From Vezdaea acicularis (lineage: Eukaryota): DNA of 22,697 bases. The position numbers and the translations under genes were made by a program. Shown piece by piece: positions 3,001-22,697 of the stretch. Below the pieces are notes generated by a model. That model saw only the letters and a list, made by a program, of their open reading frames with translations, had not been told where the DNA came from and made no database searches. The DNA is taken from NCBI GenBank assembly GCA_026025075.1, contig JAPEUI010000079.1:62001-84697 (forward strand). Reading direction: 5' to 3'. Numbering within the stretch: the stretch's first letter is position 1; the number at the start of each line of letters is the position of its first letter.

Positions 3001-3209
3001 CCAGACCGCGTGACCACCGACGGACTCGCACCGACCCTTACACACCTCGCATCCCGCCTAGAGCTTTCCCTCCCTCCCAAGTCACCCTCACCAACCCATC
3101 GAAAAGAAACACCGGTTTAACAGAACATCATCGTCGTTGTCGACTTCCTCCCATCCTTTGGTATTCGACTGCCTCTGGGCAGTTCTCGTCACGCATTTAG
3201 CCCTCGAGC

Positions 3210-4964: not shown

Positions 4965-5233
4965 CATTGAAAGGAGGGTTTGTGTGGGATAGACGGTTGG
5001 ATGGCGTTGGATACCCGGTCTCTGCGGTTTTTTTGTTGGTCGTTTGTTTGTAGATCTCCTCCCCTTTTTCCCTTTGTTCTCTCTCCTTCATCACTCAAAG
5101 GCCGCTTCCATAGAATGATACCCCCCCCGGCGCTAGTCTTAGACGGACTTGCTTTTGCAGCATACGGAAAATGTATAGATTCCTGTTTACTCACTTTTCT
5201 TCTCACACCGCCATTCTTCCACTTTTTGCCATC

Positions 5234-6079: not shown

Positions 6080-6633
6080 TGTTGGATGGTGAGATGGTGA
6101 TGGGCTGGACGCGGTATCAGTACCCTCACCGCCGTTGTTCTTCGGGGGATTCTCCGGGGAACAGGGGGGAGGAGGAGGGGATTGATATACTCCTCCCCCC
6201 CCCGCAGCGCCAAGTCAAGCGTTCCTCCGCACGGGAGCTTCGCTCCAGCTACTGCGCACGTACAAGCAGGGAGCAGGGAGTGGTCCGTGAGAGGCACATC
6301 GATCCATGGCGCAGGAACGACTTACACCACGGGCATGACCACGTGCACGTGAGAGGGCTGGCTAGAGGGGTTTTTTTTCGCTCTTGGGGCGAGGTACGGA
6401 AGGATTGGGAGAGGCACGGGAGAAGCGGGAGAGAGCTATCAGATTTTTGAGTTGGTGGTGGTGGTGGTGGCGGGGAGGAAATGCCGCGGCTTGGTGGTTT
6501 TAGATGCTACTTGGAGAAACAAAAAAGACGCCCGGACGCTGCGCCAGAGATCCGCCAAATATCGCCGGGAACGCCCCCTTCCTGCTACGTATTCTAGTCG
6601 TTTGCTAACACTTCGGGCAATAGAGAAATGCTC

Positions 6634-7787
6634 TCAGTCGGAGTCGCGGAGGATGGCGGCGCTGCGAGGGCTATGAAGCGCCTGGCGTTGCAGGATCGTG
6701 AGGGTTGGGCCAGTCCGCGTGACGAGGTTCAGTCCCGGGATTGCCAGAATGACGCCTCGAGCCGATTGAGCCACGGCAGGTGGTGCAGGCACCGCAGCTT
6801 CCTCCTGAGCGACGACCTTCCTTTTCTTTGCTTTCTTGGGATATCTCCACACATTCGTTCTCTTCGGAACGCACGAGTCCAGTGGGGGCGACTGAACATT
6901 GTGGTCGTGGTAGTGGTAGCACGTATTAATCTCCCACGGCGGCCTTGCATCTTCCTTGTCCAGGTCCACCCTCTTGCAGTTGGCAGCCTCGATGGCCTTG
7001 AGGATTGCAGGCGGCACGTCAAAGTTCTCCGAGTACTCCAAAATGTCCCTCCCTGTCGGCTTCGAGCCAAAAGTCCACACGTACATGTCCACCACCAACC
7101 GCCTGAAGTTGGACCTCTCAAGTGTATTCTCAACGATGTGGTCCAAGGCGGCTTTCGATATGAACTTTTGGTGCCCCGCTTTCCATACCCACTCATCGAT
7201 GATCTCGTTTCTCAGCTGAGTGATGTCGAATCTGTCTGCAATCACGAAAAGGCGGGCGAGCTCCTCCCACTCAAAGTCCCTTTTCAACTGGCCAATCTTG
7301 ACTCTTTTGGCAAGCCAGTGCGTGAGAATGCTAAAGGTTGCGGTGTCGACATCTGGTAGATAGATGGGATCGTCTTCGGAGAGGCCTTCCCATCTGTTTT
7401 GGGTCACAGCCACAAAGTATGGAGACCAGCTACAAAGAAGGAGCTTCGAATATCGAAAGAGAGTCTCCTCGAGCCCAACCTTGAGGAAGAGAAAGACGTC
7501 GCCTGGCTGCCTGTAAAACGTAAGTCAGACCGAAGCCCTCAAAAATGATAGACAGAGGGGGCCTACAAAAGTCGCGTTCCAGCACTGTCGCTTTCGAAGC
7601 CTGGGACGTCGCCGTACGTGCAGGTCAGCAGAGGCAATGTGTTCCCCTTCTGAGGACGTAGTTCCATCCTTCGCGAGCGGAGGGGTCGTAAGCGGCGGGG
7701 TCGTGGTTTAAATCCAATCTCATCCAGTCTCATCCTCCTGGCGAGCCAGTGAAGTTTCGAGCGAAAGTATGTCTTGCAGCGCCCCAT
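6634..7787 (-). CDS. BTB/POZ-domain protein, two exons (7787-7567, 7510-6634), about 365 aa; start codon uncertain
   Basis: Intron 7566-7511 (GTAGGC...CTGAC...CAG) joins ORF 7563-7787 in frame with ORF 6634-7413. Fungal BTB motifs: KVG..ETLF..SKLLLCSWSPYF, IYLPDVDTATFSILTHWL, LARLFVIADRFDITQLRNEIID, and C-terminal CHYHDH. Confidence 0.8.
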
Positions 7788-8363
7788 CGAGTCCAGCTAG
7801 CATTTACGACGAGGAGCTAGAGCAGTTGACTCAAGGCTGCCTACCATTGGTAGAGTCTGTGGGTACTAGCTGTGTTCCTCGTGGTAGGTGTTGCAAATGC
7901 AACGTGTACTCCACCATCGTTGAGAGATGCCGCCGCCATCTTTCAAAATTCCTTGAACGATGGACATCGGGATTACGCAGGTGGCAGTGCAGACTCATGA
8001 TGGGATCACGATTGTCACATTCAGCGGCCAGAGATGAAAATACTGTTCGTGTTTTGAACGGAGAACTACGCGAGTTTTTGGGTGTGTCGGCGCAAAGGCA
8101 TCCGTTTCTTGAGGTTTTCGTGATGCTGCTTTTTCGAAGAGGTTGGACGGTCATCACCATCTGGCGCGAAAACGCTCGGAGTTCGCTTACAGCTACCCAA
8201 TCACAACGAGGAAGCCGGAAACCGAAAACCGCCAACTGTCCACCATCTCCTTCAACTATCCCCGTCAATCTTTGCTCGCCCCAGTGATAACCCCCGCTTG
8301 ATATAGACGCTTACTGTAGTAGCTGATACGTTGCAGAAGATGCCCGACATGCCTTCACGGATG

Positions 8364-8373
8364 TATATATATA
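8364..8373 (+). promoter_or_regulatory. TATA-like (TA)5 box upstream of the captain
   Basis: tatatatata about 140 bp upstream of the ATG at 8511. Confidence 0.3.
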
Positions 8374-8510
8374 GGTGCGTCAAACCACACACTCTTCTTG
8401 ATATCGCGGACAACATACTTCATGCTGTGTCTCTAATTGCACCCCACCAATTTCACCAGTCGTTATATTCCTAGATCACCCTATATCCTGCACCATTGAG
8501 GAGTTCACCC

Positions 8511-10799
8511 ATGACTGCTACAAGACGTCAACTGGTACCAAAGCCTGCGGGATATTGGAAGAATCGGAGCAAGGAGCTTGTTGGACATCAGGCAAAGGGC
8601 AAAGATCATGCAGATCCCACGAAAAAGCAGATTGAACGGACAAAACAACTCTGGGATCGGTCCGTACACTTCCATTTCCGTCCTTTCATTCGCTTGATCG
8701 ACAACACATACTAACAGGTTTTAGATTTTGCTCGGAGATCGAAGAAGAATCAGACGAGCATCTTAAGACTGCTGGGGCCGAAGATTTCAAAACGTTTTTA
8801 GAATGGGTGATGGATGGAAATATCAAAATCACAGCTGAGGGAACAATACTGGGATGCTGGAATTTACTTCTCATGGCCTATACTAAGCTTACCAGTGGCG
8901 AGATCGTCGCTCGTCCAGTAACCCAAGAGATCAGAAAAGTAAAGTTTTCTCTTGGAGAAATCTATTAATTACAAAAATCTCTACTGACACGCGAACAAGT
9001 TCATCCATAACGATATCGTTGAGAGATACGGGCTGAGTACGGTTCGTCAACGGCCTCTCGATGTCCTAAGCTCGTTAGATCTCTTTAAACTACTTCATTA
9101 TCATTGGTGTTTTGATGATAACGTTTTTCTTCACGAACGGTATCGGATACAACAGCCATTGATCACGCAGCTTCTTGTATATGCCGTTGGTCGACCTGGT
9201 GCCATTGTTGAATCTAGTAGCTATAGAGGCACAAATGAGGTTATCAAGTATAAGGTAGCCATCAGCTGTGTATCACCAAACATGAGCTGGATTGCTGACA
9301 CATTTCTCAGGATATACAATTATCGTTACTCAAAAACTCAGCTGGCGAACGGGATGTTCTCGTTTTGGAGATGACTTTTTGGTTGCTCAAAGGAAGGCGA
9401 GGAGAGAGCAGACGGACAGAACCGTAAGTTTATCTGCTTTGACATTCTCAAGAACGCCCCTTCCTCAGTACTTACCAAACAGCCAGAGTCAAATTCGTCT
9501 TTCATGAAAGAGATGATCATCTTGCGTTCTGCCCCATCCTGCTCTTTCTGGCGCTAGCATTTGCGGATGAAGCTTTTGAAGATGTAAGCTCTCCAGAAGC
9601 GCTTAACAGAATCAGAGTTCCGCCCTGTCGTGAAGCTATCCAGTTCCGTTGGAAAAACAGCATGTTGAATATTCCAATATTTCGCCAGACCGAATCGACA
9701 GTCAACGGCCCACGTATATCACCTACACGAGCTCTTCCTGCGTCGGACTATGCGGCTTACTTGGGAAAATTGAGTCTCTCAGCCGGACTTGAAAGAAAAG
9801 TAACACCTTATTGCCTTCGACGAGGAGGGGCGAATGCAATTGAACGTAAGTGTGTCAAGTCTTCCTACCAATGCTAGCACTAATTATTGTACTCTAGCTG
9901 TGGCAACCACCGCTCAGAGAAACCAGATCATGGGGCATGCACGTGCAGATGTATTCAAACACTATATATCGCAAACAGTTGCGGTCGACACACAATCGGC
10001 TTATCTTGGGACACCGGCAAGGAAGGATCTCATGCAAGCTGTTGGGCATATGAGCGCGACTAGGGATCCAAGAGTACCAAAGAAACTGACCGATGATCAA
10101 AAAGCAGAAATCGCCCGCGATGTTTCTCTTTCAAAACTGCGTAAGATTCGTGATGAGCTGTCTGGACAACTTCGATTACAATCTGGAAAGATAAAACTCG
10201 GAAAAGGTACATCTCTGTACCAAGAATATCAGAACGCCCACAAGGATTATCGCAGTCGTCGCATGGTATTGGCAAGGGAGAAACTTGTTAAAAGTAGGGA
10301 GACGTTCTTTGCAAATATTAACGGGCTAGAAATTCGACAACAACTGGCAGGATTGCCTCAATATCGAGAACCAGATCCGCTAACTGAGATCTCATATCAT
10401 TTCCTGGAGAGGGCAAAAGTTGTGAAGGCTTTTTATGGGGATGAAGATGCTCAAAGCGTTCGTTGGTCTGTGATCGAAGATCTAGCCAAGCTTTGTCTTT
10501 TCCAAGAACGCCGTCGCCAAGGCGATAACCGCCCCCACTATAATTTCTTGGAACTGACAGTTGAGTGTTCCCACACACAATGCATTTTCTGCATAGGAAA
10601 CTCCAATATGTCGATTGCAGACCGCTATCAAAATTTCACAAGAGGTTCGAGCCTTCGAAGGCACGTTCAAAACATTCATCTGAGGTATCATGACGCAGCA
10701 AAGCCGATTTCATGCCCTCATCCTTGTTGTGCTATCACATTGGAGAATCTTGTTCACTTCAAAAACCATGTTGCAAAAGTTCATGGCGTTTTTCTATGA
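8511..10799 (+). CDS. DUF3435 tyrosine recombinase (Starship captain) with C-terminal C2H2-type zinc fingers, 663 aa, six exons
   Basis: Exons 8511-8659, 8725-8938, 9000-9254, 9311-9423, 9487-9845 and 9898-10799 total 1992 nt and stay in frame across five GT-AG introns. Motifs: WDRFC, HERYRIQ, GRPGAIVES, YRGTNEVIKYKD, LLKGRR, FCPILLFLALAFADEAF, PYCLRRGGAN, RNQIMGHARADVFKHYIS, then CIFC...RRHVQNIH and CPHPCC...KNHVAKVH. Confidence 0.93.
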
Positions 10800-11140
10800 T
10801 TAAACTTGGGTTCTCCGCTTGTTGTTTATCGTTGTTATCTAAATTGATTTACGGGCAAGTGAATAGGATAGACAAATTTTCGCCCGAAATGAATACCATG
10901 GGCAAATTTTCGCAAAAATGAATTCTATAGACATATCACTCAGTTATTGTCTCGTATCTACCCTTCCTATGATGATGATTTGGCCAACAGTCGGCTCGCG
11001 GTCGCTTTATCGGGGCGAGCTTGTTGCCAGAAGAGCCTATTTTGAGATGATGCTTCGTCGACAGCCGCTGCTGAAGTCCTGGGCTAGACGTCTTTTCACA
11101 GCAAGTGCGTTCTCATCACCATCCTTGTCATCGCGAGCAT

Positions 11141-11831
11141 GCTTTCTTGTTGACGACGGCTGTGACGACAACGACGACTTGTCTTTGACGGCGGCGGCTG
11201 TCTTGACGACGACGACTTGTCTTGACGACGACGGCTGTCTTGACGACGACGGCTTTCTTTTGACGACAACGGCTGTGACGATGACGACGACTTGTCTTGA
11301 CGACGGCTGCTGTCTTGACGACGACGGCTTTCTTTGACGACGACGGCTGTGACGACGACGACGACGACGACTTGTCTTGACGACGGCGGCTGTCTTGACG
11401 ACGACGGCTTTCTTTGACGACAACGGCTGACGACGACGACGACTTGTCTTGACGACGGCTGCTGTCTTGACGACGACGGCTTTCTTTGACGACGACGGCT
11501 GTCTTGACGACGGCGGCTGTCTTGACGACGACGGCTTTCTTTGACGACAACGTCTGTGACGACGACGACGACGACTTGTCTTGACGACGGTGGCTGTCTT
11601 GACGACGACGACTTCCTTTTGACGACAACGGCTGTGACGACGACGACGGCGGCTGTCTTGACGACGGCGGCTGTCTTGACGACGGCGGCTGTCTTGACGA
11701 CGGCGGCTGTCTTGACGACGACGGCTGTCTTGACGACGACGGCTTTCTTTTGACGACAACGGCTGTGACGACGACGACGACTTGTCTTGACGACGACGAC
11801 TTGTCTTGACGACGACGGCTGTCTTGACGAC
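11141..11831. repeat. Hierarchical minisatellite of roughly 35 subunits (16-27 bp) built on TGACGAC/(GAC)n
   Basis: Four subunit types: GGCTGT(GAC)n, TTGTCTTGACGACGGC, GGCTGTCTTGACGACGAC and GGCTTTCTTTGACGACAAC. They recur in a ~75-bp higher-order order, with the GGCTTTCTTT-type unit appearing about 7 times. Confidence 0.95.
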
Positions 11832-12064
11832 TGTTGAAGGAAATCGCTTGTTCGGATCGTTCCGTGAGCTACGGTACCATCACGTGCCAGGTCGAAAGTC
11901 TGGATCGCTCAGATCAAGCGAACCCATACGCGAGCAATCCAGACTTTTGACCTGGTACTGTAGCGCCTATTGGGACGAAACTTGCGCGCCTGAAAACAAA
12001 GGGTGCAAGACTGAGGAATGCCTGAGGAATGCCTGAGGTGTGATTCTGACTGTTACAAAAGATT

Positions 12065-13560
12065 ATGGACTTTGATCATCTGCAAAATCGCCGCATTAAA
12101 AAGGCTTGCGAGCTTTTCATAACCTCTATTGAAGAAAATGAGATTTGCTCTATAGCATCATCTCATAATGCTGGCAAGCCATGTTTTATCTTCCAGAAAC
12201 CTAAAGCTGGCAGTTATAATGTTTGCTTTTTTGTTAGATTCCCTCCAGCCAAAGGAAGAATGGAAAAGGAAGAAAAATGGGTCGTACGATATCCGTTGCC
12301 TTCAGTACACAATCCAAGAGAGAAGTTGGAGAGTGAGATTGCAACTATGAAGTAAACTCCTCTCAGCGCGACTATGCACCTTGGAATTTATGATAACAGC
12401 TCTATAGCTATGTTCAAGCAAAAACAACAATACCGGTTCCTCGCATCCACGGTTATCGGCTTGGTGAAGATGATTGCAACACAGTACCCGGCCAGAATTA
12501 CCTACTAATGGATTTTGTGCCAGGAGAGCGCTGGCACGGAAAGAATCTGCCCAATCTCTCACAAGAGGTCTCTACAAGGTTTTATACGCAACTGGCGAGC
12601 ATATTGGCTCAATTACGTCGACAGGAATTTGAGCGCATAGGCTCTCTCACACTAGACAGCAAGAAAGAAGGCTGGAAGTTGGAGAAGCCTCCACTATCAA
12701 TGGATCTTAATGATCAATTGATCAGGAACCAGAGATCATCCGGAACGTTGGAACAAACCTTTGAAAGCGCACCTGAGTATATCTGGGCACTTTATGAACT
12801 TCTATACACTGGCTTCAAAAAACAGAGGAACAGTGTCTTCGACAGAAAGGATGCCGAAAGAAAAGTATATGCATTGGAAGATTTTAGAAACATACTCTCT
12901 CACTGGATAAATACAAAATATAGCAACGGTCCCTTTGTGTTGATGCACGGAGATCTGCGACCTTCAAACCTTGTTGTTGATGCCGACTATAACATTCTGG
13001 CTGTCTTAGATTGGGAGTGGAGTCGCACAGTACCAATACAGCTTTTCATTCCACCCACCTGGCTTACCGGATATGATGCAGACATAATTGCTCGCCCAGG
13101 CTATCAGGCCGGACTTATGTTGCAGCATTTCAAACTTGGCATGGCGATCACAAAATCTCGAAAAGCTAATGTAGGCTTGGAAATACTGGAAAGAGAATGG
13201 CCGTGCATCGATGAAGCTAGCATCCTGATTGCTAGTGCCCTATTACGGAACTTTACCTTTTATGGCATCTATTTTGACGGATTAAGTCGGCTTTATTCGC
13301 CAAAGCAGACAGAAGAACTATACACGAATTTTTTCCAAGATCCTGAAAGAAAGCATCTGGTCAAGTTGGTGGAGGAGAAAGTCAAAGACTTGCATTGGTA
13401 TGAGGCGGAAACCAAAAGACACCACAGCCATAAGATAATCTCTCATCCACTCAATACCTTATACTCTTCACGGAGCTCATCCAATTTTTGTTTAATAGCC
13501 GTAGCCTGTGCTGTGTTTTGGCTGATCTGCTCCTCGATTGATAGACCTTGGATCGAGTGA
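12065..13560 (+). CDS. APH/choline-kinase-like phosphotransferase family protein, two exons (12065-12351, 12408-13560), 479 aa
   Basis: Intron 12352-12407 (GTAAAC...TAG) restores frame. Motifs: GSYNVCF, WVVRYP, ESEIATM.YV...TTIPVPRIHGY, YLLMDFVPG, FERIGSL, catalytic HGDLRPSNLVV and Mg-binding VLDWEWS. Confidence 0.88.
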
Positions 13561-13742
13561 CCAATCTGCTTAGCACGCTTCTCTCTTGCCGCGGTACCGC
13601 TGCTACTTAGTTGATCAGCAGCATCAGTTGACAACTGACGGCCAAACGCGTCTAATTTCATAAGCTCTTGGGATTTTTCGTCAATCAATTGCTCTAACTC
13701 TTCAATTTGCTTCATTCTATCGTCGGTGATTTTATTGGACAT
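13443..13742 (-). CDS. Small coiled-coil protein (at least 99 aa) convergent with and overlapping the 3' end of the APH gene; may have an upstream exon
   Basis: Heptad-like E/K/Q/L-rich sequence (IEELEQLIDEKSQELMKL; IKQKLDELREEYKVL). A possible GTATGA donor lies near 13814 and a TTTAG acceptor just before the ATG. Confidence 0.55.
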   Translation of the reverse strand: MSNKITDDRMKQIEELEQLIDEKSQELMKLDAFGRQLSTDAADQLSSSGTAAREKRAKQIGHSIQGLSIEEQISQNTAQATAIKQKLDELREEYKVLSG

Positions 13743-14448
13743 GTCTAAAAGCTGATAGTGGCTAGCAGAAGAGGAAATTAGGCGTTGAAAGAGTTCTATT
13801 GAGTGCAGTCATACCGTCCCTATGCACAATATGAACAATTATTTCTTTGCTGTTGGATACAGGTGTAGGACTTTGCAGAGAGGGCGAGCCTGATCTTATA
13901 TTAAGGGAGAGCGGCCTGATCACTATATTATGTTGGACCCCTAAGGCTGGCCTCTACGAGGCTAAGTATCAATCTCTAATCAATCGATTGTTTTTGCTAC
14001 GTGTGTTGTCAAAAGAGAACCTGGCATTGCATTGAGCACACACGATTAGCCATTGGCTCAGGACTGCAGTGCGTCATTTATTGCACGTGATGTCATGTCA
14101 AGATCTGACAACCAAAGGACTATGCACAAATCATTTCTCTCCGTACATTGAAGGTTGAGATGCTATACACAAGCGCATAACTAAATGATGAGAAGACTTT
14201 GAGGATGAATATTTGAAACACAGTGAGTCGACTGGGGCGAATCGCTAGAGCCTGTTCATCAAAAACTGGAGAGGTTTTCCTTATCCACATAAGAACATGA
14301 ATATATAACGTTTCCCTTGCGGTTCTCCGTTCGTTTCCTGCTCCATGCTTATTCTCACGGCGATTAGTACGATTATCTTCAGCTACAAGATTTTGGATTA
14401 CACACCTTCCTTCGATCAAGCTGAACATTCTCTCGTGGCTACCTTGTG

Positions 14449-15274
14449 CTACTTCACATCGATGTCAATACAGGTAGTATAGAGTTCTTGCTTACCATTT
14501 GGAAAACCCTGAGCACCAGGTGCCGTTGGCCAATCCCAAACCCAATAAAGAGTATATATTCCTGTATCTGTTATTGGCATCTTAACATCAATTTCACACC
14601 ATTGATCGGCTCCCATCACGCTATCAGCAACATGCGGATATTGCATCTGTCTGCTCTTTGAGATAGGCCCGGGATTTATCTGATAACATCTGCCATCATC
14701 AAAACTGCGCATGCCTAAAAGCTCACCTTGTCCGTTCCCTCCTGTACCATCTTCATTCCAAACTTTATGGATGGAAAGAAGCGTATCGTTGGCTTGAGCC
14801 TTGCTAGTGCCGTAGACATACACAAGACCAGCGCCAGGAGGCTTTCCAGGGGTGACATCTGGAAGGGTCACATGGCCATTTTCTTGGTAGAAAAGACTTA
14901 CTTTATCCCCAGGACTTGCCCTTAATCGTGGACTTCCTTCAGTCACATTTGCGGTCATCTGGGAGTCTCTACATATAAGATCTGATGGTAACACTACTTG
15001 ATTAGCTCTGTCAACAGGTGGGATCAGGTTTACCATTGTTGGATCTGAAAATATTGGATTAGCGGCAACACCAGTGGTCGTAGATATCTGCCTAGGGACT
15101 GTGGCAATCAGTAAAGAACTTATAGAACAGTAGCTATTGATTACCGTTGCCCCTTGCAAAACCTGGATCACTCGATAACCCATCGGAAGAAGTAGCTGTG
15201 AGTCTTTCCACCCAAGAGTGACAGCTAATGATGCTAATAAAAACGCTCCAGGGCACAATATTTTTGGTTAGCAT
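14449..15274 (-). CDS. Secreted DUF7492-like protein with N-terminal His after the signal peptide, two exons (15274-15145, 15098-14449), 259 aa
   Basis: Intron 15144-15099 (GTAATC...CTGAT...CAG) gives MLTKNIVPWSVFISIISC-HSWVERL...PGFARGNVPR. Conserved-looking blocks: YQENGHVTLP, VYVYGT, GTGGNGQG, FDDGRCYQ, YTLYWVWDWPT, GKQELYTTCIDI. Confidence 0.8.
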
Positions 15275-15462
15275 ACTCTTCTATTGTGCAGAGATTTATA
15301 TCAATACTGATAATCTATGAGGAGTATGAGGAGTACGAGGAACTATGTGTTCTTATAAGAAAGCGACTGGACGTGTGATACATGGTGGCAGTCCGTTTGG
15401 CGCCCAACCAAAAGTGCGCCGGCCGCAAACCGGCACCTCGAAAACCAAAATCTGTCATATCA

Positions 15463-15855
15463 TCATCCAAACTCCCATGCGCATGGCATTCCCGAACTAT
15501 GCTCCCTCTCAACTGTGGCAGAATCTGGACAGAGATTAGTTCAGACACAGATTGAAGCTTTGCTAAAGGCTTTGACCTTACAGCAATTTAAATTGACGTC
15601 GTCTTCGGTCAAGCCATGCTCCATCAGTAATTCTGCTAAGATTTTCTTAGACTTTTGTGTATCTACTAGGCCCGTATTGTCTACTAGCTGGTATTCTGAC
15701 CGAAACGTGTGAAGCCGCCAGCGTATTGCGTCTACTGTACGATTTGTCCCATATCTCATATTGAGACGAGTCGCAATCTCACGGGCTGAAAGATGGGTAG
15801 TTGCGGCGTGCACCATTGATAAGACATGGCTGATCTCCCACGAGTTTTTGCCCAT
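15463..15855 (-). CDS. Small Myb/SANT- or Clr5-like helix-turn-helix protein; 3' end uncertain
   Basis: SW.....LSAREIATRLNMRYGTNRTVDAIRWRL. A likely intron at 15581-15525 (GTAAGG...ACTAAT...CAG) gives a stop at 15463. The unspliced ORF ends at 15541. Confidence 0.55.
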
Positions 15856-16006
15856 GATTTCTTGATGAACACTTTATGTGGGGGCGCAGAGGAAAATGAA
15901 AGATCTACAAATTTTAGACACAGCTGCAATTTCAAAGCGTGTACGCTCTTCTCTAAGTGACGAGACCTTTTAGTCATGCTAATCTGGAATCCCCATCCTT
16001 GATCAT

Positions 16007-16566
16007 TTAGCGTCTTCGTGGAGGGGGTGGCGTTGAAGTTGGCCCCCGCTTCATGCAACTAACAACCGCCACAACACCAGACAACTCTTGCTCATAGCTT
16101 TCAACATCGCTGCAACCACCGCACAAGTTCATCTCTGTCCTTGACGCTGCGTCCGAGCCTTCACATGTTCTATGCACTGTCAGCATTACAATGTTTGAAA
16201 AGTGATTGAGCAATGCTTACAATGTCAGAGATGCAGCTCCGTTAGGGACGCTCGAGGGTAAATTAATCTCGGCAACCTGTTGACCACTACAATTATGCGG
16301 CGAAGCGATTGACGTAAGAGGGATGAAATTCTCATCTTGGAAAGTTACCGTAGCAGCACAAGTTTGATTCAATATGTTAGGCATCCTAAAGATCATATAG
16401 TCAATCCTTTGCTTCAAGCTCTCCATGGATATCTCACTCACATAATTCTGATCGGGTCCGACCCAATATCCAAATGAACCACCGGACTGGCAAGGAAAGG
16501 CAGCTCGCCGATGAGACCGAGAGTCCCTTGGCTAAGGGCCAAGATTCCTATGATCTCAACTTTCAT
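16007..16566 (-). CDS. Small secreted six-cysteine protein, three exons (16566-16442, 16385-16221, 16169-16007), 150 aa
   Basis: Introns 16441-16386 (GTGAGT...TTGAC...TAG) and 16220-16170 (GTAAGC...CTGAC...TAG) both keep frame. The N-terminus MKVEIIGILALSQGTLG is signal-peptide-like. Confidence 0.7.
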
Positions 16567-16790
16567 CTTAGCCTCGTGATCTGTTGTTGCTTTGCAAATG
16601 TATCTTATTTTTCATTCGATGTGATTATTACTGACATGTTACTTCGCTCAAGCTGCCAACTGATCGCTCCTTATATGTATCGGCCAACATAATACGGGGG
16701 CCGCGAATTGACAGTTAGCCTACAGTATTGTGCCCCACAGCGGTTTGCATAGTCAGTCACCTGCAGATGGTCACGGTTCTAGCGCTTATG

Positions 16791-16822
16791 ATAGGCGCGC
16801 TCTTAGATAGACGCGCTCTTAG
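16791..16822. repeat. 16-bp tandem duplication ATAG(G/A)CGCGCTCTTAG in a divergent intergenic region
   Basis: 16791-16806 versus 16807-16822, one mismatch. Confidence 0.8.
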
Positions 16823-17066
16823 CAAGCATTTGTCGCTGTGATAGGGCCAGTGAATGGTGATGAGGTCTTCTGCTATCACGATAGTTGGATGAGGTAAGCG
16901 CCAGCTATCCTCTGGCTGCGTCTTACCCCATGCACTCCTTCACATGCACTTCTTCCATAAGGCAGCGATACGCCGACTTCCAAATTTCTACTGAATCAGT
17001 TGTTTATAAAAATCAGACCGAAGTTCGTCAAGACCATGAAAAACCGCTAAGAGACTCTCCACAATC

Positions 17067-17645
17067 ATGTCAACTCAGCATCAAGAGATCACATTCGAGG
17101 AGCTTCTTCAAACGGAAGCGCTCTTGCCGAACAATCTAGAGTATTCAGATACGACGCAGCCCGATAACGTCAAGCAGACTGACTGTGACATATCTTTAGA
17201 TGCTGTGACAAGTTGGCCAGACAATCTGGCAGCCCCATGGGCGTCAGCCGATCTTTTACAGAGTTTTCCTGAATTTTCTTCATCCCTGCCTCCAGCGCCC
17301 GTGTACTTAGACAGCATGAAGGATGAAATTGAGAAGAGATTCCAGATGCTTGAAGAGTAAGTCCACCACCAACGTAACCTGCTGTACTCATGGATTTCAA
17401 TTAGGCAAGTTGTACAACTTGATAGGACATGTACGAATCAAGCACAACAGATCAAACTGCTAGAAGAAGAACTGAACAAGTTCAAAGGAGAATTTCAAGG
17501 GACCCAGGAATGGATCAATGGGACGGACGAGTGGATTGGGGGCATTGATGAAACTGTTCACTCGTTAGTGAATTTTGTGTATGAAGAAGAGAAAGTAGCC
17601 GGCACCTGCATGGAAAGTGGTAAAGATGAAGTCAAAGTTGAATAA
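17067..17645 (+). CDS. Hypothetical acidic protein with coiled coil, two exons (17067-17356, 17405-17645), 176 aa
   Basis: Intron 17357-17404 (GTAAGT...TAG) keeps frame: MKDEIEKRFQMLEEQVVQLDRTCTNQAQQIKLLEEELNKFK. Confidence 0.7.
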
Positions 17646-18206
17646 TTCGAGTCGGCAAACATTTGGATTTTGTAAATAGACTTAAGTTTACATGTATCCA
17701 CCTGACAAATGCCTAGGCTTGTGAGATGATCAGTACGCCAACGGCGATAAGCATTCTGGGACGCCATCAACTTACTTGGATTCTATTGGGCGGCTGAGCG
17801 GCTGACGTGTTAAGCGATATAAAAACTATCGAGGGTTGGAGCGGAACATTCAAAGATTAGCATACTACATGAGCCGCTAGCGCACGCTATATGGCTTAGG
17901 TCCATGCAAGTGACTCGTTTACCTATCGTGAGGAGGGTACAAGGGGATCCCATCTACTATGGGAATATGCACGCCATATTGCGCAGTATAGCCCTTAGCG
18001 CGTGATGCAAGTGAATCACAAACAGTAGCTCTTAATTTTAGAGGCACACTCACAGGTAGCTGTTGATTTTCTCTGCATACGGCGGCTCGCCAGCTGTCGA
18101 ATTTTTTGTGTATCACTCTCTAAGCCTACTATATTACCCCTTTATCCCCCAATGTGTAGAGAGGCCAGAGAGCGTCTTTTATCCATTTTGAACAAGGCAA
18201 GGCAGC

Positions 18207-18933
18207 ATGCCATCCCGATTCCGATATACACCTGAAATGATTGACTGGCTAGATACTTTCCGTGATGACAATAAACATCTCAGCTGGGACGTGATTGTCC
18301 AGTTGTTTAATCAGAAGTTCAAGACCACTTGCACCTGCGATGGTCTAAGATATAAATATTACCACAGCGGATCAAGGTGGCACTTGTCCAAAATATTTTG
18401 AGGAGATGTACTAATATTCCATTAGACGGTTGCAACGTGAACAAAAGGCAAATGTTGAGTACTTGACGCCATACACTCTATTTCCTTATGAATCTGAGAG
18501 CACAAATACAAATGGAAGTATGGAGAAGCAGGTGCAGGTTTATGGAGAACCTACACCAGAATCAGTTCTTCAGCAAATAGAGAGTACAAATACTAGAGTT
18601 CCAGGCGGGAACAACAATGTCGATCCAGGATATCTTATTCAGCAACCTAGCAGCTTCGATGCCCAAATTTCGATGCTGCAGGATACTTTCTGCGCACAAA
18701 GAAGCAGCTTCTTATTAGAAGACATATCCAAGCCACCTTCCACACCTCGACTTCTACCGACAGGAATAGAGAGAAAGGATGATCGACATACAGATGTTGA
18801 CGAGGATACACCCTCTGACCCGGAATTATCACCTCTAAACATAGGAACTTTGATATGGCCGTCACAAATTGTTGCGATGCATAGAAGAGTTGAGTCGGAG
18901 GCTTCAGGAGCCGCATCATCTAGAGGCGCTTGA
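18207..18933 (+). CDS. Myb/SANT-like N-terminal domain protein with disordered acidic tail, two exons (18207-18376, 18426-18933), 225 aa
   Basis: Intron 18377-18425 (GTGGCA...TACTAAT...TAG) keeps frame. RYTPEMIDWL...LSWDVIVQLFNQKF..T.DGLRYKYY fits a three-helix Myb-like pattern. Confidence 0.7.
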
Positions 18934-19426
18934 AGATTTGTTAAATTAGATTTTTGCAATGGCTGTGGCGCTAGTATAATACACATATCATAACTCATTT
19001 TTGCGTTCCTCTATGAGAAATAGGACTCCTTACCGCCGAGGAAGGTGATGCACGTTACGGCGCTTGTGATAAAGTAACGCCCAGCCACGTCTTGCCTGCG
19101 GAAGATGATGCTGTATGTTTTGCCGCTCTGGGAGATGCAGGAGATGAGATGATAGAATTGTGTTTGGCGGTAGGTGCCAAGCCGCTGGCTCCATAAGAGT
19201 AAGTGGTGATAAAGATTGAGCCATCCTGGATGAGACGCTTGGAAGACTCACAAGTCCATATTTCAATTGAGAAGACCTATTCAGTAAACACCAAATCTTT
19301 GCTCAAAGTAACCTAGAGCTCGCTCGTCAATTGTATCTATAGGATGTCACTAGAGATGGATGGAGGTGTACCTGTTAGATAACTGTCTCTCCACAAAAGC
19401 CAACCAACTGATGCGTCTCCCAGGCT

Positions 19427-19822
19427 ATGAGAAGACAACCGCCGCCTTGTTCCAGTTGTAGAGCAAACCCCGACTATGCCTACTTGGAATCATATTACAA
19501 TGATACAGTGCTTAGCGTGCAAAGCCAAAGCCTTCTCCTTAGTCAGAACCAGCTCTTTACAAGCCGTATCAGAGCGCTAGAAAAGTCTCTAACTTTGGAG
19601 CGGGAAAGATTTGAAGCTCTTCAGCAGGCGCTGAGGAATTCTCGGGATTCAAGAGCTTGGCTGGAAGCTTCCATCCAGCGAGAAGCCAGTCTCAAAAACG
19701 AAATTTTGGGATTGGCTATGAATAAACGAATGTTGGAATCACAGGTAGATCAGAAGGATCGTCAACTACAACTGGCTAGACAAGAGATCAGCAGATTCAA
19801 TCGACAGCAAAGGCATGCTTGA
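19427..19822 (+). CDS. Coiled-coil protein (about 131 aa) with N-terminal CxxC; may have a short upstream exon
   Basis: CSSC followed by a long heptad-rich L/E/R/Q helix. A branch-point-like CTGAT and a CAG lie just upstream of the ATG. Confidence 0.6.
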   Translation: MRRQPPPCSSCRANPDYAYLESYYNDTVLSVQSQSLLLSQNQLFTSRIRALEKSLTLERERFEALQQALRNSRDSRAWLEASIQREASLKNEILGLAMNKRMLESQVDQKDRQLQLARQEISRFNRQQRHA

Positions 19823-19899
19823 ACAGAAAAACGCATTTGTAGGTCATACCACCATCTTCTACAACATGGCTCATATACTCAAGACGTTGGAAGGTACTC

Positions 19900-21197
19900 T
19901 CAAAGCTTCTCTGGGATGTTCCAGACCGTTTGGCACTGAATGGAAGCTATTTCAACCAAAGTGCTAAGATTCGTTGTCTTCCCTTCCAAAAAAGGATGCT
20001 GTGGAGTGTCAATTTGAGTACGATCATAGCGGGATAAACGCACCTGGGTAGGAAGAGTTTTGCCTTCAAGTTTACTCTCTAGAAACAAACGTTCCATGAA
20101 GCTGAGTAGCTCCTGACTCCACTTAGATGGTTCTTTGATGTATGAAGTGGGATGGTCTCGTATCATTTTAACCATTTCACGTCGTGACAATCCAAATGGA
20201 AAAGTTTTCTCCCAATTGAGAGTATCAAGTAAAGCCAATCCTAGTCCTGTTGCGCCCAAAGACGGCTCCAACCCATCGTTTTCTGCAGATATATTCTCTA
20301 GCCCAGCTGTACACATTAGTCAAAGCCTTGTTGGAGCAGGTTGAAGGCTTACCCAGAAGAATTCTACCATCACGGGCCACAAGGATGGAAGATAGACCAA
20401 CGTCACCGTGCGTATATCCTTTCTCCATAAGATACTGGAGTGCTGAAAGGACCTATCACTATTAGGCATAGCTGCGAAACGGGAAAGAAATACCTTACTG
20501 CAAGAGCTATTGTTCTGATTTGAGACTCTGTCAAGCAGGTTGAAAGCAGCAAGATATCTGCTAGACTATGCCGTATAAAGGGGGTCACAACGACAAATTC
20601 GCCGTCTTGTTGGAAAGCTTCAAGCGGTTGTAATATGTGCTCGTGATGGATTGAAAGAATCGAAGATAGTTGTATGCGCTTGTGTTCAGCGGCATACGAA
20701 CAGATCGCTACAAGAGTTTCTTCATTGTTTTCAGATTTTGCCAAAAGCACAGTTTGGGCAGCACTGAGTTTGAGAATAGGAGAATACTTTTGCGTAAACG
20801 GGAGTGTTTGGATGATGTGGTTTTTTGACTGCTTTCTTGAAATCTCTGAGCGCACGCCAGTATCTATACAACCTCGTCTCAAACTTGGCTCCCAGGAGTT
20901 ACTTTTTCTGTAGATAGGTTTTTTTCCAACTGGAGCACCAGCCAAATCAGAAAAGTTAGCCGTTCTTTTGGCCGAATTTACAGGCTTAAACTCTGTCTTG
21001 CTTGAGCCTTGTGCGTCCTGATATCGGTTTGGTAATTGAGGCCTCGGCGTTCTCTTGAACAAAGGTGGTGGGACGACAAAGCTCTTTTCCGCGGTTACAC
21101 CACCGTATGTCGTGCACCTAGATCCTTGATTTGCCATTCTGTTCAACGTTTGACGCCAAAATTTTGAGGAGTGGGGACTACTTGACATGCTGACCAT
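19900..21197 (-). CDS. Degenerate protein-kinase-fold protein (probable pseudokinase, STE20/PAK-like), four exons (21197-20499, 20452-20353, 20306-20044, 19998-19900), about 386 aa
   Basis: Introns 20498-20453, 20352-20307 and 20043-19999 are all GT-AG and keep frame. Kinase remnants: LVAIC, HEHILQPLEAF, SLADIL, LTESQIRTIALAVLSALQYL, YTHGDVGLSSILV, KWSQELLSFM and HPFL. Confidence 0.75.
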
Positions 21198-21555
21198 AAC
21201 TGTAAGCGCTGACTACGCCTTTAAATAGCCGGTGGTCAGCAGGAGCGAGCGCGATCTGCGCTCCGCCAAAAGCCAAATACTGGCATTACTTAAACTTGAG
21301 TGCAAGCTTTCAAAAAGCTGCACAATGACAGCGAATAAGGAGTGTATCTTTATTGATCAAGCCATAGCGGGTGCTTAAAACGTGGTCATGCACTAAACTT
21401 ATATTCGGCTGAGAACTTCGATGAGTGATTATTTCCCTTAGTCTTTCCAGCTTGCCACAAATTCACTAGAAGAGGAGCACGTCAGCAGGCCAGCCTCCAC
21501 TATTTCCTGCCAAGGTGTCAACACAGAGTCCAAGAGCCAGCGGGACACTGTAGAA

Positions 21556-22056
21556 ATGACTTTAGTTACACCTTTATCCTGGTTATGGATTTGCGAGCGA
21601 TGTGGGACCAAGTATGAACTTGGTGTCACAGCTAGATGCCTTAAGGACGGACATAGATACTGCTCTAAACCTCCTTCCGGCTGCAGGAGTGAGTTTGATT
21701 ACTCCGGATGGGAACGCTGGGCGGTTTTGCGTAGATCAAAGCTCCAGAAAGCCAATTTACACCAAGGTGGTCACAATTGTTGGATCGATTGTGATTGGCC
21801 TAGTGAGTGTAAATGGCGCTCCCGTTTCAGAAAACCGAGTTCGGTTCCACAAGTTACAGAGAAAGAACATCACTCTAGACAATCCAATCGAGAAAAAGAT
21901 GTTAGCCTTCTTCAGACGATTCATCACACCCTCACGCCTATTCAGGAGGAACGAGAAATTGAAAAATGTACACCGAGAGAAGAACAATCGGAAGATATAA
22001 TAGATAAATGTTCCCACAGCTTTCTTGATTTAGGAGAGAGTGATGAGGAGGTTTGA
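21556..22056 (+). CDS. Cys/His/Trp-rich hypothetical protein (166 aa), probable zinc binder
   Basis: WLWICERC...YELGVTARCLKDGHRYC...CRSEFDYSGWERW...CWIDCDWPSEC resembles a motif seen in uncharacterised ascomycete proteins. Acidic tail. Confidence 0.7.
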   Translation: MTLVTPLSWLWICERCGTKYELGVTARCLKDGHRYCSKPPSGCRSEFDYSGWERWAVLRRSKLQKANLHQGGHNCWIDCDWPSECKWRSRFRKPSSVPQVTEKEHHSRQSNREKDVSLLQTIHHTLTPIQEEREIEKCTPREEQSEDIIDKCSHSFLDLGESDEEV

Positions 22057-22088
22057 AGGAGATGAGGAAATTTCACGAGATGCTGTAG

Positions 22089-22148
22089 GTCACGTGATAA
22101 ACCTCACATCGGAAAGTGTGGATGCACTGTAGTATAGCTCCTTAGTAT
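22089..22148 (+). repeat. Copy 1 of a 60-bp imperfect direct repeat (candidate element terminus)
   Basis: Ungapped 50/60 match to 22638-22697, including GTCACGTGA, GGAAAG and GCACTGTAG(T/A)ATAGCTCCTTAGTAT. Confidence 0.85.
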
Positions 22149-22637
22149 TCAATCGTTATACTAATCAAGAGATACCTATTAAATACCATCTACTATTTGC
22201 TATTTGCTGCCACTACCCTGTGTATCGCATGCGACCATCCCGCTTGAGACTAGTCTGCTGCCTGCCCCTTTGTCTACCTACTACAGAGAAGGAGAAGCGA
22301 CTGTTGGCATCTGAGGAGGGGAGGAAGGAAACGGTCTGCGCCTTCCGCGCTGGATCACGGGGCATTCTTCCCGGGGAACCAGGCAGGTCATCCGATGGAG
22401 CTCTCTTCCCTGCGCGCCTAGCAAAGGAGATTGTGCAGATACGGAAAAAAGCTGGACGCGTTAGGACGCGTCTGCTGGTTTTTTGCTCGGTGAAGGTGGT
22501 GCGTGTGGGTGGTTGCTGTATATACATAGATCGGTGGGAGGAGTTTGGGAGGGTGGAGAAAGGCTGGCAGTGTCACGAACCTACCTTCCCGTGACTTAGC
22601 CTGCGACTCGACTGCGCTTAGCAAGCGCTAGGTATAC

Positions 22638-22697
22638 GTCACGTGACCACCGTCATATAGGAAAGCGGGGAAGCACTGTAGAATAGCTCCTTAGTAT
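22638..22697 (+). repeat. Copy 2 of the 60-bp imperfect direct repeat; runs to the window edge
   Basis: Offset exactly 549 bp from copy 1, with 10 mismatches and no gaps. Confidence 0.85.

What the first reader, a model, noticed from the sequence alone, without database searches (positions are those of the whole stretch)
8282..22697. Very compact Starship-like element with an unusual cargo set
Seen: an intact DUF3435 captain followed by about ten small, tightly packed genes in an AT-richer block of about 14 kb. Established: Starships carry a 5' captain, usually span tens to hundreds of kb, and often carry DUF3723, ferric reductase, patatin-like or NLR genes. I recognise none of those here. 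Inference: if the 22.1/22.6-kb motif is the right end, this is a near-minimal Starship. Its recurring genes (Myb/SANT, pseudokinase, coiled coils, secreted proteins) could then define a core mobilisation or transfer module rather than metabolic cargo.
Basis: partly seen in the sequence, partly recalled or inferred. Interest (0 to 1): 0.85.

Follow-up and report, generated by a model that had tools for sequence, protein, structure and literature searches.

The report
Candidate mini-Starship in a lichen fungus
An intact "captain" recombinase gene opens a sharply bounded 14-kb low-GC island of about eleven genes in a lichen-associated fungus, so this may be an unusually small Starship transposon, but its ends and mobility could not be proved from this sequence alone.

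Summary
A six-exon, 669-codon DUF3435 tyrosine-recombinase gene (8511-10799, +) is open. It keeps the active-site residues and a C-terminal Cys/His finger. It lies 213 nt inside the left edge of a low-GC island, with GC change points at 8298 and about 22206-22260. No 490-nt window of the island outside one minisatellite reaches GC 0.50, and no left-flank window falls below it. GC3 is 0.35-0.51 in ten island genes against 0.65-0.68 in two flank genes. None of the four Starship auxiliary families is present.

The "22.1/22.6-kb motif" is a 63-nt direct repeat whose second copy is cut by the window end. It does not match the left end significantly. Better end candidates are CCCGCTTGA, found exactly only at 8293 and 22239, and CTGTAGTA, found three times, all at the island edges. 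Their significance is modest. No empty site, second copy or relative could be examined.

The "core mobilisation module" idea is not supported. The pseudokinase has no homologue but itself, DUF7492 is a widespread fungal family, the ORFs show no paralogy, and Myb/SANT is not confirmed.

Verdict: a plausible (about 45%) 13.9-kb Starship-type element, a new member of a known kind.

The parts
8293..8301 (+). Left copy of CCCGCTTGA, a candidate direct repeat. It spans the left GC change point (8298).
   Evidence: Exact copies occur only at 8293 and 22239 in the window. Change point.
8313..8324 (+). ACTGTAGTAGCT motif, 12 nt inside the left boundary. It holds one of the three CTGTAGTA sites in the window.
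   Evidence: 3 sites, 0.28 expected, 0 of 100 shuffles reach 3.
8511..10799 (+). Captain gene, a DUF3435 tyrosine recombinase. Exons: 8511-8659, 8725-8938, 9000-9254, 9311-9423, 9469 (or about 9483)-9845, 9898-10799. 669 codons, with a C-terminal Cys/His finger.
11141..11831 (.). GC-rich minisatellite: 18-nt unit, 36.8 copies (also read as a 37-nt period). Open in several frames. Coding status unknown.
12065..13560 (+). APH-family (phosphotransferase/kinase-like) gene. First exon about 12065-12355, second exon 12397-13560.
   Evidence: PF01636, E 2.1e-15. ORFs.
13446..13742 (-). Small ORF of 99 aa, judged coiled-coil by eye. In the annotated model P0007 it is fused to the DUF7492 gene.
14452..15244 (-). 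DUF7492 gene. Main exon 14452-15099, plus an N-terminal exon at about 15146-15244 that matches the N-terminal part of homologues (signal peptide and His judged by eye).
   Evidence: PF24320, E 2.9e-82..
15583..15855 (-). Small helical HTH/Myb-like ORF of 91 aa, in the opposite sense to the captain.
   Evidence: HTH_12, 23.1 bits; three helices, pLDDT 60. Myb clusters at 0.82-0.83, a lead only; no fold match at E <= 0.001.
16217..16531 (-). ORF of unknown function, 104 aa stop to stop.
   Evidence: no family.
17067..17645 (+). Two-exon gene judged coiled-coil by eye. A 48-nt GTAAGT...TAG intron at 17357-17404 removes the in-frame stop.
   Evidence: Weak sub-threshold hits only.
18207..18933 (+). 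Gene with a Myb-like-looking N-terminus (18207-18401) and a tail (18415-18933) that looks Ser/Pro-rich and disordered by eye.
   Evidence: no significant family or fold match.
19427..19822 (+). ORF of 131 aa, judged coiled-coil by eye.
   Evidence: only sub-threshold hits.
19903..21137 (-). Kinase-like gene (protein P0006, 381 aa, three exons). Partial kinase domain with HGD and no DFG, so probably a pseudokinase.
   Evidence: Pkinase 38.6 bits, profile positions 50-137 of 263.
21556..22056 (+). Cys-rich ORF of 166 aa. Nearest Atlas clusters are Ascomycota hypotheticals. Zn_ribbon_double is a lead only.
22086..22148 (+). Repeat D5a, 63 nt. It contains a CACGTG core and ACTGTAGTATAGCT.
22239..22247 (+). 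Right copy of CCCGCTTGA, inside the flat optimum of the right GC change point (22200-22260).
22276..22286 (-). Inverted copy of CTGTAGTAG(G)T. It matches 10 of 11 positions of 8314-8324 and lies 28 nt outside the right CCCGCTTGA.
22207..22697 (.). GC-rich tail (GC 0.558). Probable right flank, or an internal GC-rich patch.
22635..22697 (+). Repeat D5b, 83% identical to D5a and cut by the window end.

Best explanation
An intact Starship-superfamily tyrosine-recombinase ('captain') gene is the first gene of a low-GC island, about 8,300 to 22,240, and is transcribed into it. No second copy at 90% identity or more is on record. The gene combines a DUF3435 domain with a C-terminal Cys/His finger. 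The island lies in a contig of a lichen-associated ascomycete. The database names the identical proteins 'MAG ... [Vezdaea acicularis]'.

The most likely reading is that the island is one small Starship-type cargo element of about 13.9 kb, or a recently fixed copy of one. By analogy with HhpA of Hephaestus, the captain would recombine short sequences shared by the element termini and the target, release a circle and reinsert it. The candidate crossover sequence is CCCGCTTGA (8293 and 22239). CTGTAGTA-type motifs lie beside both ends and could be binding sites.

Shown: the gene is intact and keeps its catalytic residues; its position and orientation; the sharp compositional and codon-usage island; the shared end motifs.

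Inferred: that the island is the mobile unit, that it ends at about 22.24 kb, and that it is or was mobile.

The cargo is about eleven genes, none from a known Starship auxiliary family: APH-like kinase, secreted DUF7492 protein, pseudokinase, small HTH-like proteins, ORFs that look coiled-coil by eye, and a Cys-rich protein.
For: Gene:
- Open six-exon model with canonical introns.
- End-to-end alignment with homologues. By my reading of that alignment, the R (GRPGAIVE), K (LKGRR), Y-x-x-R (YCLRR), H (MGH) and nucleophile Y (KHY) are conserved.
- DUF3435 over profile positions 3-400 of 418, E 1.8e-101.
- The Tyr-for-His site, and the spacing of 34 residues to the nucleophile by my count, resemble HhpA Y381/Y416 (PMC10104507 passages).

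Position:
- ATG 8511 lies 213 nt inside the left change point 8298.
- Captains always take the first position with conserved orientation (PMC9156397 and PMC10104507 passages).

Island:
- 490-nt windows separate completely. Island maximum is 0.494 outside the minisatellite, left-flank minimum is 0.502, and the tail is 0.558.
- GC3 is 0.35-0.51 in ten island genes against 0.65 and 0.68 in two flank genes.
- No RIP signature, and the genes are intact.

Ends:
- CCCGCTTGA occurs exactly only at the two change points.
- CTGTAGTA occurs 3 times, all at the edges, with 0.28 expected and 0 of 100 shuffles reaching 3.
- Three or more shared 9-mers have P = 0.008 for narrow zones chosen post hoc and P = 0.117 for broad zones.

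Accessory character:
- The pseudokinase has no hit but itself (1 of 657 candidates).
- No congener row appears among the 120 listed DUF7492 hits.
- The only named congener hit is 36% identical (P0146).
Against: - No empty site, second copy or syntenic relative could be examined. No genome is held. The left-flank 33-mer is absent from viral contigs. The metagenome scan gave 4 contigs of 1.1-3.4 kb.
- The end motifs were found post hoc. The broad-zone P is 0.117, and Smith-Waterman scores of left end against right end lie within shuffles.
- The inverted CTGTAGTAG copy lies outside, not inside, the right CCCGCTTGA, so the two candidate features do not form the canonical DR-TIR...TIR-DR layout.
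- The GC-rich tail is only 491 nt, and a GC-rich patch also exists inside the island (the minisatellite, maximum 0.59).
- The window probably ends where the contig ends (84,697 - 22,697 = 62,000; inference).
- The flank baseline is only two genes.
- The DUF7492 copy is not nested in a foreign clade, so there is no sign of recent horizontal transfer.
- The captain, kinase and DUF7492 proteins each sit alone in their 90% cluster on one contig.
- None of the four auxiliary families is present.
- A 13.9-kb element falls under the 15-kb cut below which starfish treats predictions as likely false positives. Most catalogued captains have no delimited element, 559 against 10,212 (PMC11162782 passages).
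Confidence: 0.45

Rival explanations
1. The window shows only the 5' part of an ordinary, larger Starship. The GC-rich last 491 nt are an internal patch, like the minisatellite, or a nested repeat. The element runs on past the end of the contig.
For: - The window end cuts the second copy of the D5 repeat. It probably coincides with the contig end (inference), which is typical of an assembly break at a repeat.
- A GC-rich patch already exists inside the island.
- Median Starship sizes are 27-97 kb (PMC11162782 passage).
- No auxiliary genes have been seen yet, and they could lie further on.
Against: - The tail's GC (0.558) lies inside the left-flank range and above every island window outside the minisatellite.
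- The right GC change point coincides with the second exact CCCGCTTGA and the CTGTAGTA motifs.
- The tail is not a tandem repeat.
Confidence: 0.2
2. There is no cargo element. The captain is a 'solo' or fixed tyrosine-recombinase gene beside ordinary resident genes. The GC difference reflects regional or gene-by-gene variation in this genome, and the shared short motifs are chance.
For: - Solo captains far outnumber delimited elements, 10,212 against 559 (PMC11162782 passage).
- DUF7492 and APH are ordinary, widespread fungal families. The DUF7492 tree follows taxonomy, with the window copy among the lichen rows.
- No second copy at 90% identity or more is on record.
- The motif statistics are weak without the post hoc choice of zones.
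- The left flank has only two usable genes as a baseline.
Against: - Flank and island separate completely in GC, and GC3 differs by about 0.25.
- Both transitions are abrupt, and the left one falls 213 nt before the captain ATG.
- The pseudokinase is an orphan.
- The DUF7492 copy has an end branch of 1.04 against a median of 0.11.
- CTGTAGTA occurs only at the two edges.
Confidence: 0.3
3. The contig is a chimeric metagenome assembly that joins DNA of two fungi with different GC content at about 8.3 kb.
For: The tool names the identical proteins as coming from a metagenome-assembled genome. The GC shift is abrupt.
Against: - GC returns to flank-like values at 22.2 kb.
- The D5 repeat has one copy on each side of that return.
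- An exact 9-mer is shared by the two junctions.
- A single chimeric join predicts one shift, not two.
Confidence: 0.05

Closest known systems
Starship elements and their DUF3435 captains, e.g. Hephaestus/HhpA (PMC10104507, PMC9156397, PMC11162782; passages read)
   Same: - Full-length DUF3435 tyrosine recombinase with the catalytic residues, including Tyr at the His position as in HhpA.
- First gene, transcribed into the block.
- Intact cargo genes of mostly unknown function.
- Short repeats at both edges.
   Different: - At about 13.9 kb it lies below the smallest catalogued element (15,020 bp) and below starfish's 15-kb filter.
- No DUF3723, FRE, PLP or NLR gene.
- The boundaries are not confirmed by an empty site.
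- The captain is at most 43% identical to any full-length relative found. Its family within the Starship tree is not determined.
Tangerine, the Starship of the lichen fungus Xanthoria parietina (PMC13486527; abstract, sections 8 and 11, passages)
   Same: - The host is a lichen-associated ascomycete.
- Tangerine has short direct repeats with terminal inverted repeats set 14 and 28 bp away from them. Here CTGTAGTAG lies 12 nt from the left CCCGCTTGA and 28 nt from the right one.
   Different: - As its authors describe it, Tangerine is large, carries DUF3723, PLP and NLR genes, has a truncated 283-aa captain without a core-binding domain, and was delimited by an empty site.
- Here the captain is full length, no auxiliaries are present and no empty site is known.
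- The word 'Vezdaea' does not occur in that paper's main text. Its supplements could not be read.
MYB/SANT border gene of Starships (PMC12256816; passages)
   Same: A small helical, possibly Myb-like ORF (15583-15855) lies in the opposite sense to the captain. That paper also lists captains with a C2H2 finger (IPR013087).
   Different: No Myb/SANT family reaches even E <= 5 in Pfam. The ORF is 6.4 kb from the right edge, not at it.
Crypton DNA transposons (tyrosine-recombinase transposons of conventional size; mentioned in PMC11162782 and PMC9156397)
   Same: Small size and a tyrosine recombinase as the only recognisable mobility gene.
   Different: The recombinase is of DUF3435/Starship type. 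About eleven further intact genes lie in the block. Crypton membership was not tested, because no reference sequences were available.

Membership tests
Starship-superfamily tyrosine recombinase (captain) | Full-length DUF3435 (PF11917) domain | tested here: met
   P0127 is the locus's own annotated protein. It scores E 1.8e-101 over profile positions 3-400 of 418. The three exon pieces also hit the family.
Starship-superfamily tyrosine recombinase (captain) | Conserved catalytic residues (R, K, H/Y, R, and the nucleophile Y) | tested here: met
   I read them from the alignment with five homologues: GRPGAIVE, LKGRR, YCLRR, MGH, KHY. The assignment of roles follows the PMC10104507 passages.
Starship-superfamily tyrosine recombinase (captain) | Placement inside one of the named families in the reference YR tree | not testable with these tools
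   No reference captain set could be loaded. The nearest relatives are 35-43% identical.
Starship element (Gluck-Thaler et al. 2022 definition) | DUF3435 gene at the 5' end, with conserved orientation | tested here: met
   ATG 8511 is 213 nt inside the left GC change point 8298, and the gene is transcribed into the island.
Starship element (Gluck-Thaler et al. 2022 definition) | Boundaries marked by direct repeats/TSDs and confirmed by an insertion polymorphism (empty site) | not testable with these tools
   No genome is held. There were no matches in viral contigs. The metagenome scan gave only 4 short contigs. The one candidate is the 9-bp repeat CCCGCTTGA at 8293 and 22239.
Starship element (Gluck-Thaler et al. 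2022 definition) | Terminal inverted repeats inside the direct repeats (present in many elements, not all) | tested here: inconclusive
   CTGTAGTAGCT at 8314-8324 matches the reverse complement of 22276-22286 at 10 of 11 positions. However, the right copy lies outside the right CCCGCTTGA.
Starship element (starfish high-confidence set) | Length of at least 15 kb | tested here: not met
   The length is 13.8-14.0 kb with any of the candidate ends. The filter is described in a PMC11162782 passage.
Starship-like region (DUF3435 with DUF3723, FRE, PLP or NLR, without TSDs) | At least one auxiliary family next to the captain | tested here: not met
   0 of the 87 ORFs of 60 aa or more overlapping 8282-22697 hit any of these families at E <= 0.01.
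Starship MYB/SANT border gene | Recognisable Myb/SANT domain, at the edge opposite the captain, in the opposite sense | tested here: not met
   - No Myb family in Pfam at E <= 5.
- No PDB sequence hit.
- No fold match at E <= 0.001.
- Atlas Myb clusters score only 0.82-0.83.
- The minus-strand ORF lies mid-block.
Protein kinase (gene 19903-21137) | Complete catalytic domain with HRD...K..N and DFG | tested here: not met
   Pkinase matches profile positions 50-137 of 263 only, at 38.6 bits. The sequence reads HGD, with no K/N and no DFG (P0006), so it is probably a pseudokinase.

The most novel reading that the evidence does not exclude
The island is a complete, autonomous 13.9-kb Starship. It would be smaller than the smallest catalogued element (15,020 bp) and below the 15-kb cut that starfish applies. 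It carries none of the four auxiliary families, and it sits in an order (Vezdaeales) for which my literature searches found no described Starship. If so, the usual size filter hides a class of 'mini-Starships' whose cargo is a handful of orphan, regulatory-looking genes. The minimal requirements for Starship mobility would then be one captain plus about 100 nt at each end.
Probability: 0.3. Interest if true: 0.55.

Novelty: new member of a known kind. Interest (0 to 1): 0.4.

Why it matters
If the ends are confirmed, this would be one of the smallest cargo-carrying Starships, found in a poorly sampled, lichen-associated lineage. It would give a natural "mini" element for asking what a captain needs in cis. 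It would also argue for lowering the 15-kb filter in surveys. If the ends are not confirmed, it is one more unassigned captain among thousands, which is ordinary. The proposed "core mobilisation module" would have been the exciting part, and it is not supported.

Tried and rejected
- Whole genome of the window: none is held.
- Earlier notes on this genome: none. A look-up by sequence also found none.
- Rfam and tRNA scans of the window found nothing, so there is no 5S or tRNA target.
- Left end against the 22.1/22.6-kb motif: local alignment scores lie within shuffles.
- Empty-site test with an exact 33-nt left-flank string in viral contigs: 0 matches.
- Exact look-up of ten ATG-to-stop ORFs, with and without the stop codon: none is in the collection.
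- Metagenome scan with a captain alignment: 56 pattern matches gave 4 confirmed loci of 1.1-3.4 kb.
- In-silico joining of the two flanks at either candidate repeat restored no convincing gene across the junction.
- RIP as the cause of low GC: rejected. TpA/ApT is 0.73, the substrate index is 1.29, and the genes are intact.
- Recent horizontal transfer of DUF7492: not seen. I used 30 named rows picked from the 120 listed and left out the unnamed metagenomic rows. The window copy falls outside the Eurotiomycete clade on a long branch.
- Paralogy among 213 ORFs of 50 aa or more: none at E <= 0.01.
- Myb/SANT: Pfam, PDB sequence search, two single-sequence AlphaFold models (pLDDT 60 and 67) with Foldseek, and the Atlas gave only weak HTH or homeodomain-like leads.
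- A shorter element ending after the Myb-like ORF, at the one-mismatch copy CCCGCTTCA (16045): rejected. Such near-copies are expected by chance (5 seen, 5.6 expected), and GC does not change there.

Full report
**What is there**

The window falls into three compositional parts. GC is 0.58-0.67 in 1-6500, 0.50-0.53 in 6500-8300 and 0.42-0.49 from 8300 to about 22200. The one exception inside the last part is a GC-rich minisatellite at 11.1-11.8 kb. A two-segment likelihood scan puts the left change point at 8298. It puts the right one at 22206, with an almost flat optimum from 22200 to 22260. The last 491 nt rise again to GC 0.558.

The separation is complete:
- No 490-nt window of the island outside the minisatellite exceeds 0.494.
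- No left-flank window falls below 0.502.
- The tail lies in the flank range.

Third-codon-position GC is 0.35-0.51 in ten island genes. It is 0.68 in the BTB gene and 0.65 in the low-complexity gene of the left flank. RIP indices are negative throughout and the genes are open, so low GC is not RIP decay.

**The captain**

DUF3435 (PF11917) is hit by three ORF pieces in different frames. Five GT-AG introns of 45-65 nt, with plausible branch sites, join six exons from ATG 8511 to the stop at 10799. This gives an open 669-codon frame.

tblastn of five homologues is collinear with these exons, and the model aligns with them end to end. In my reading of that alignment, the following are conserved: the Arg of GRPGAIVE, the Lys of LKGRR, Y-x-x-R (YCLRR), the His of MGH and the Tyr of KHY. 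A C-terminal C-x2-C...H / C...C...H...H motif is conserved too.

A Tyr at the usual His position is the state of HhpA (Y381), whose nucleophile is Y416. By my count the spacing here is 34 residues (PMC10104507 passages).

The database holds the locus's own annotated protein, P0127 (578 aa). It is 99% identical over its matched stretch, is named 'MAG: hypothetical protein M1824_005948 [Vezdaea acicularis]', and sits on a contig of 84,697 nt. It gives DUF3435 at E 1.8e-101 over profile positions 3-400 of 418. That model uses my first introns. It also adds an intron at about 10458-10596 that removes the conserved C-terminal finger. Homologues align through the continuous ORF to 10790-10796, so I prefer the 669-aa model.

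Relatives are distant:
- 5 long proteins at 36-37% identity among 4,934 candidates.
- In the exhaustive representative search, 948 hits at E <= 1e-3 and 29 at E <= 1e-30. The best non-self full-length hits are 35-43% identical.
- The ones I looked up are named MAG proteins of Cirrosporium novae-zelandiae, Coniocarpon cinnabarinum and Vezdaea aestivalis (36%), plus a Blastomyces 'FluG domain' protein.

One caveat applies. That library holds one representative per 50% cluster, and my 'longer' search started at 581 aa. Relatives of 50-90% identity could therefore have been missed.

**Cargo**

After the captain come, in order:
- an 18-nt x 36.8 minisatellite (11141-11831);
- an APH-family gene (PF01636, E 2e-15);
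- a small ORF that looks coiled-coil by eye (minus strand);
- a DUF7492 gene (E 3e-82), whose separate N-terminal exon matches the start of homologues;
- a 91-aa helical ORF (HTH_12, 23.1 bits);
- an unknown ORF;
- a two-exon gene that looks coiled-coil by eye, in which a 48-nt intron removes the in-frame stop;
- a gene with a Myb-like-looking start and a tail that looks disordered;
- another ORF that looks coiled-coil by eye;
- a three-exon kinase-like gene, identical to P0006;
- a Cys-rich ORF.

All 87 stop-to-stop ORFs of 60 aa or more overlapping 8282-22697 were scanned. None hits DUF3723, ferric reductase, patatin or NACHT.

The kinase-like protein matches Pkinase only over profile positions 50-137 of 263. 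It reads HGD, with no DFG, so 'pseudokinase' is fair.

'Myb/SANT' is not confirmed:
- no Myb family in Pfam even at E <= 5;
- no PDB sequence hits;
- low-confidence models (pLDDT 60 and 67) with no fold match at E <= 0.001, only HTH or homeodomain-like rows at E > 1;
- Atlas Myb clusters at 0.82-0.83, which the tool itself rates as leads only.

**Is the cargo a recurring module?**

No.
- The pseudokinase exon finds one protein among 657 candidates in 5.8 billion, and that protein is its own.
- DUF7492 finds 496 proteins at E <= 1e-10. The best non-self hit is 63% identical (Aspergillus ellipticus), and lichen MAGs reach 57-60%.
- In trees of 31 rows the family follows taxonomy. The rows are 30 named picks from the 120 listed, with unnamed metagenomic rows left out. 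The window copy sits outside the Eurotiomycete clade, among unresolved lichen rows, on a long branch (1.04 against a median of 0.11).
- None of the species with the nearest named captain relatives appears among the 120 listed DUF7492 hits.
- No two of the 213 ORFs of 50 aa or more in the window are similar at E <= 0.01.

A MYB/SANT gene at the edge opposite the captain, in the opposite sense, has been reported for about a quarter of Starship-like regions (PMC12256816 passages). Here the minus-strand helical ORF lies mid-block.

**The ends**

It has a CACGTG core, and the second copy is cut by the window end.

The window is therefore probably the tail of that contig and ends where the assembly ends. 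This is an inference.

The repeat does not match the left end beyond 12-14 nt, and local alignment scores lie within shuffles.

Searching the two transition zones for shared words gave three 9-mers:
- CCCGCTTGA at 8293 and 22239, direct. These are the only exact copies in the window, and one lies at each change point.
- ACTGTAGTA at 8313 and 22126, direct. The right copy is inside the repeat.
- CTGTAGTAG at 8314 and, inverted, at 22278-22286.

The 8-mer CTGTAGTA occurs three times in the whole window. All three sites are at the island edges, against 0.28 expected, and 0 of 100 shuffles reach three.

Against an empirical null of random zone pairs from the window, three or more shared 9-mers have P = 0.117 for the broad zones I first searched. 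For narrow zones drawn after seeing the hits, P = 0.008. The truth lies between these values.

With CCCGCTTGA as the direct repeat, the element would span 8302-22247 (13,946 bp). However, the inverted CTGTAGTAG copy then lies 28 nt outside the right repeat. The canonical DR-TIR...TIR-DR layout is therefore not met, and at most one of the candidate features can mark the true end. Joining the flanks in silico restores no gene.

**What could not be done**

- No genome is held for the window.
- The DNA collections on hand are viral, prokaryotic or metagenomic.
- The left-flank 33-mer is absent from viral contigs.
- The one metagenome scan returned four contigs of 1.1-3.4 kb.
- The captain, kinase and DUF7492 proteins are each alone in their 90% cluster, on one contig.

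Presence/absence polymorphism, copy number and what lies beyond 22,697 all remain open.

**Comparison with what is known**

By the 2022 definition, a Starship is a region bounded by TSDs with a DUF3435 gene at its 5' end. A 'Starship-like' region needs auxiliary genes (PMC9156397 passages). Here the captain criterion is met, the boundary criterion is untestable, and the auxiliary criterion fails.

starfish removed predictions under 15 kb as likely false positives. Its smallest element is 15,020 bp, and it lists 559 delimited elements against 10,212 'solo' captains (PMC11162782 passages).

A lichen Starship, Tangerine, was described in 2026, together with a survey of 1,508 recombinases in 554 lichen-associated genomes (PMC13486527: abstract, sections 8 and 11). 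Its main text does not mention Vezdaea.

**Verdict**

The reading 'compact Starship-like element' is plausible but unproven. My estimates are:
- about 0.45 for a bounded element of about 14 kb;
- 0.2 for the 5' part of a larger Starship;
- 0.3 for a solo captain among resident genes;
- 0.05 for a chimeric contig.

The 'core mobilisation module' idea is not supported. This is a new member of a known kind and is of moderate interest. Its main value is as a candidate mini-Starship that a few read-mapping and assembly checks could settle.

Noticed in passing
window 11141-11831 and 11884-11958: A GC-rich minisatellite (18-nt unit, 36.8 copies; also read as a 37-nt period) lies 340 nt downstream of the captain's stop codon. 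It is open in several frames on both strands. A 27-nt inverted repeat, 89% complementary with a 21-nt loop, follows it directly. Whether it codes for a hexapeptide-repeat protein is unknown.
   Followed up: partly
window 13446-15855 (protein P0007) and 10458-10596 (protein P0127): Two database gene models for this locus look wrong. P0007 fuses the helical ORF, the DUF7492 domain and the small 13446-13742 ORF into one 412-aa protein, and it skips the N-terminal exon that homologues share. P0127 splices out the conserved C-terminal Cys/His finger of the captain.
   Followed up: partly
window 22086-22148 and 22635-22697: The 63-nt repeat carries a CACGTG palindrome (GTCACGTGAC in the second copy). 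Its second copy lies exactly at the window end, which is probably the contig end. This suggests a repeat family that broke the assembly.
   Followed up: partly
window 3201-4964: The left flank holds a GC-rich ORF (GC1 0.79), open on both strands, with many 15-57-nt tandem repeats. By eye these encode QYPPQ-like and Glu/Arg/Gln-rich stretches. It has no Pfam family.
   Followed up: no
window 14452-15099: The DUF7492 copy has an end branch about nine times the median of the family tree (1.04 against 0.11), although it keeps 64% identity to the best hit. It may be a fast-evolving copy or belong to a long-branch host lineage.
   Followed up: partly
window 7712-8287: The 191-aa ORF that ends 6 nt before the left repeat has GC2 above GC1 (0.56 against 0.50) and no family hit, so it is probably not a gene. 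The stretch 7525-8298 then looks intergenic.
   Followed up: partly
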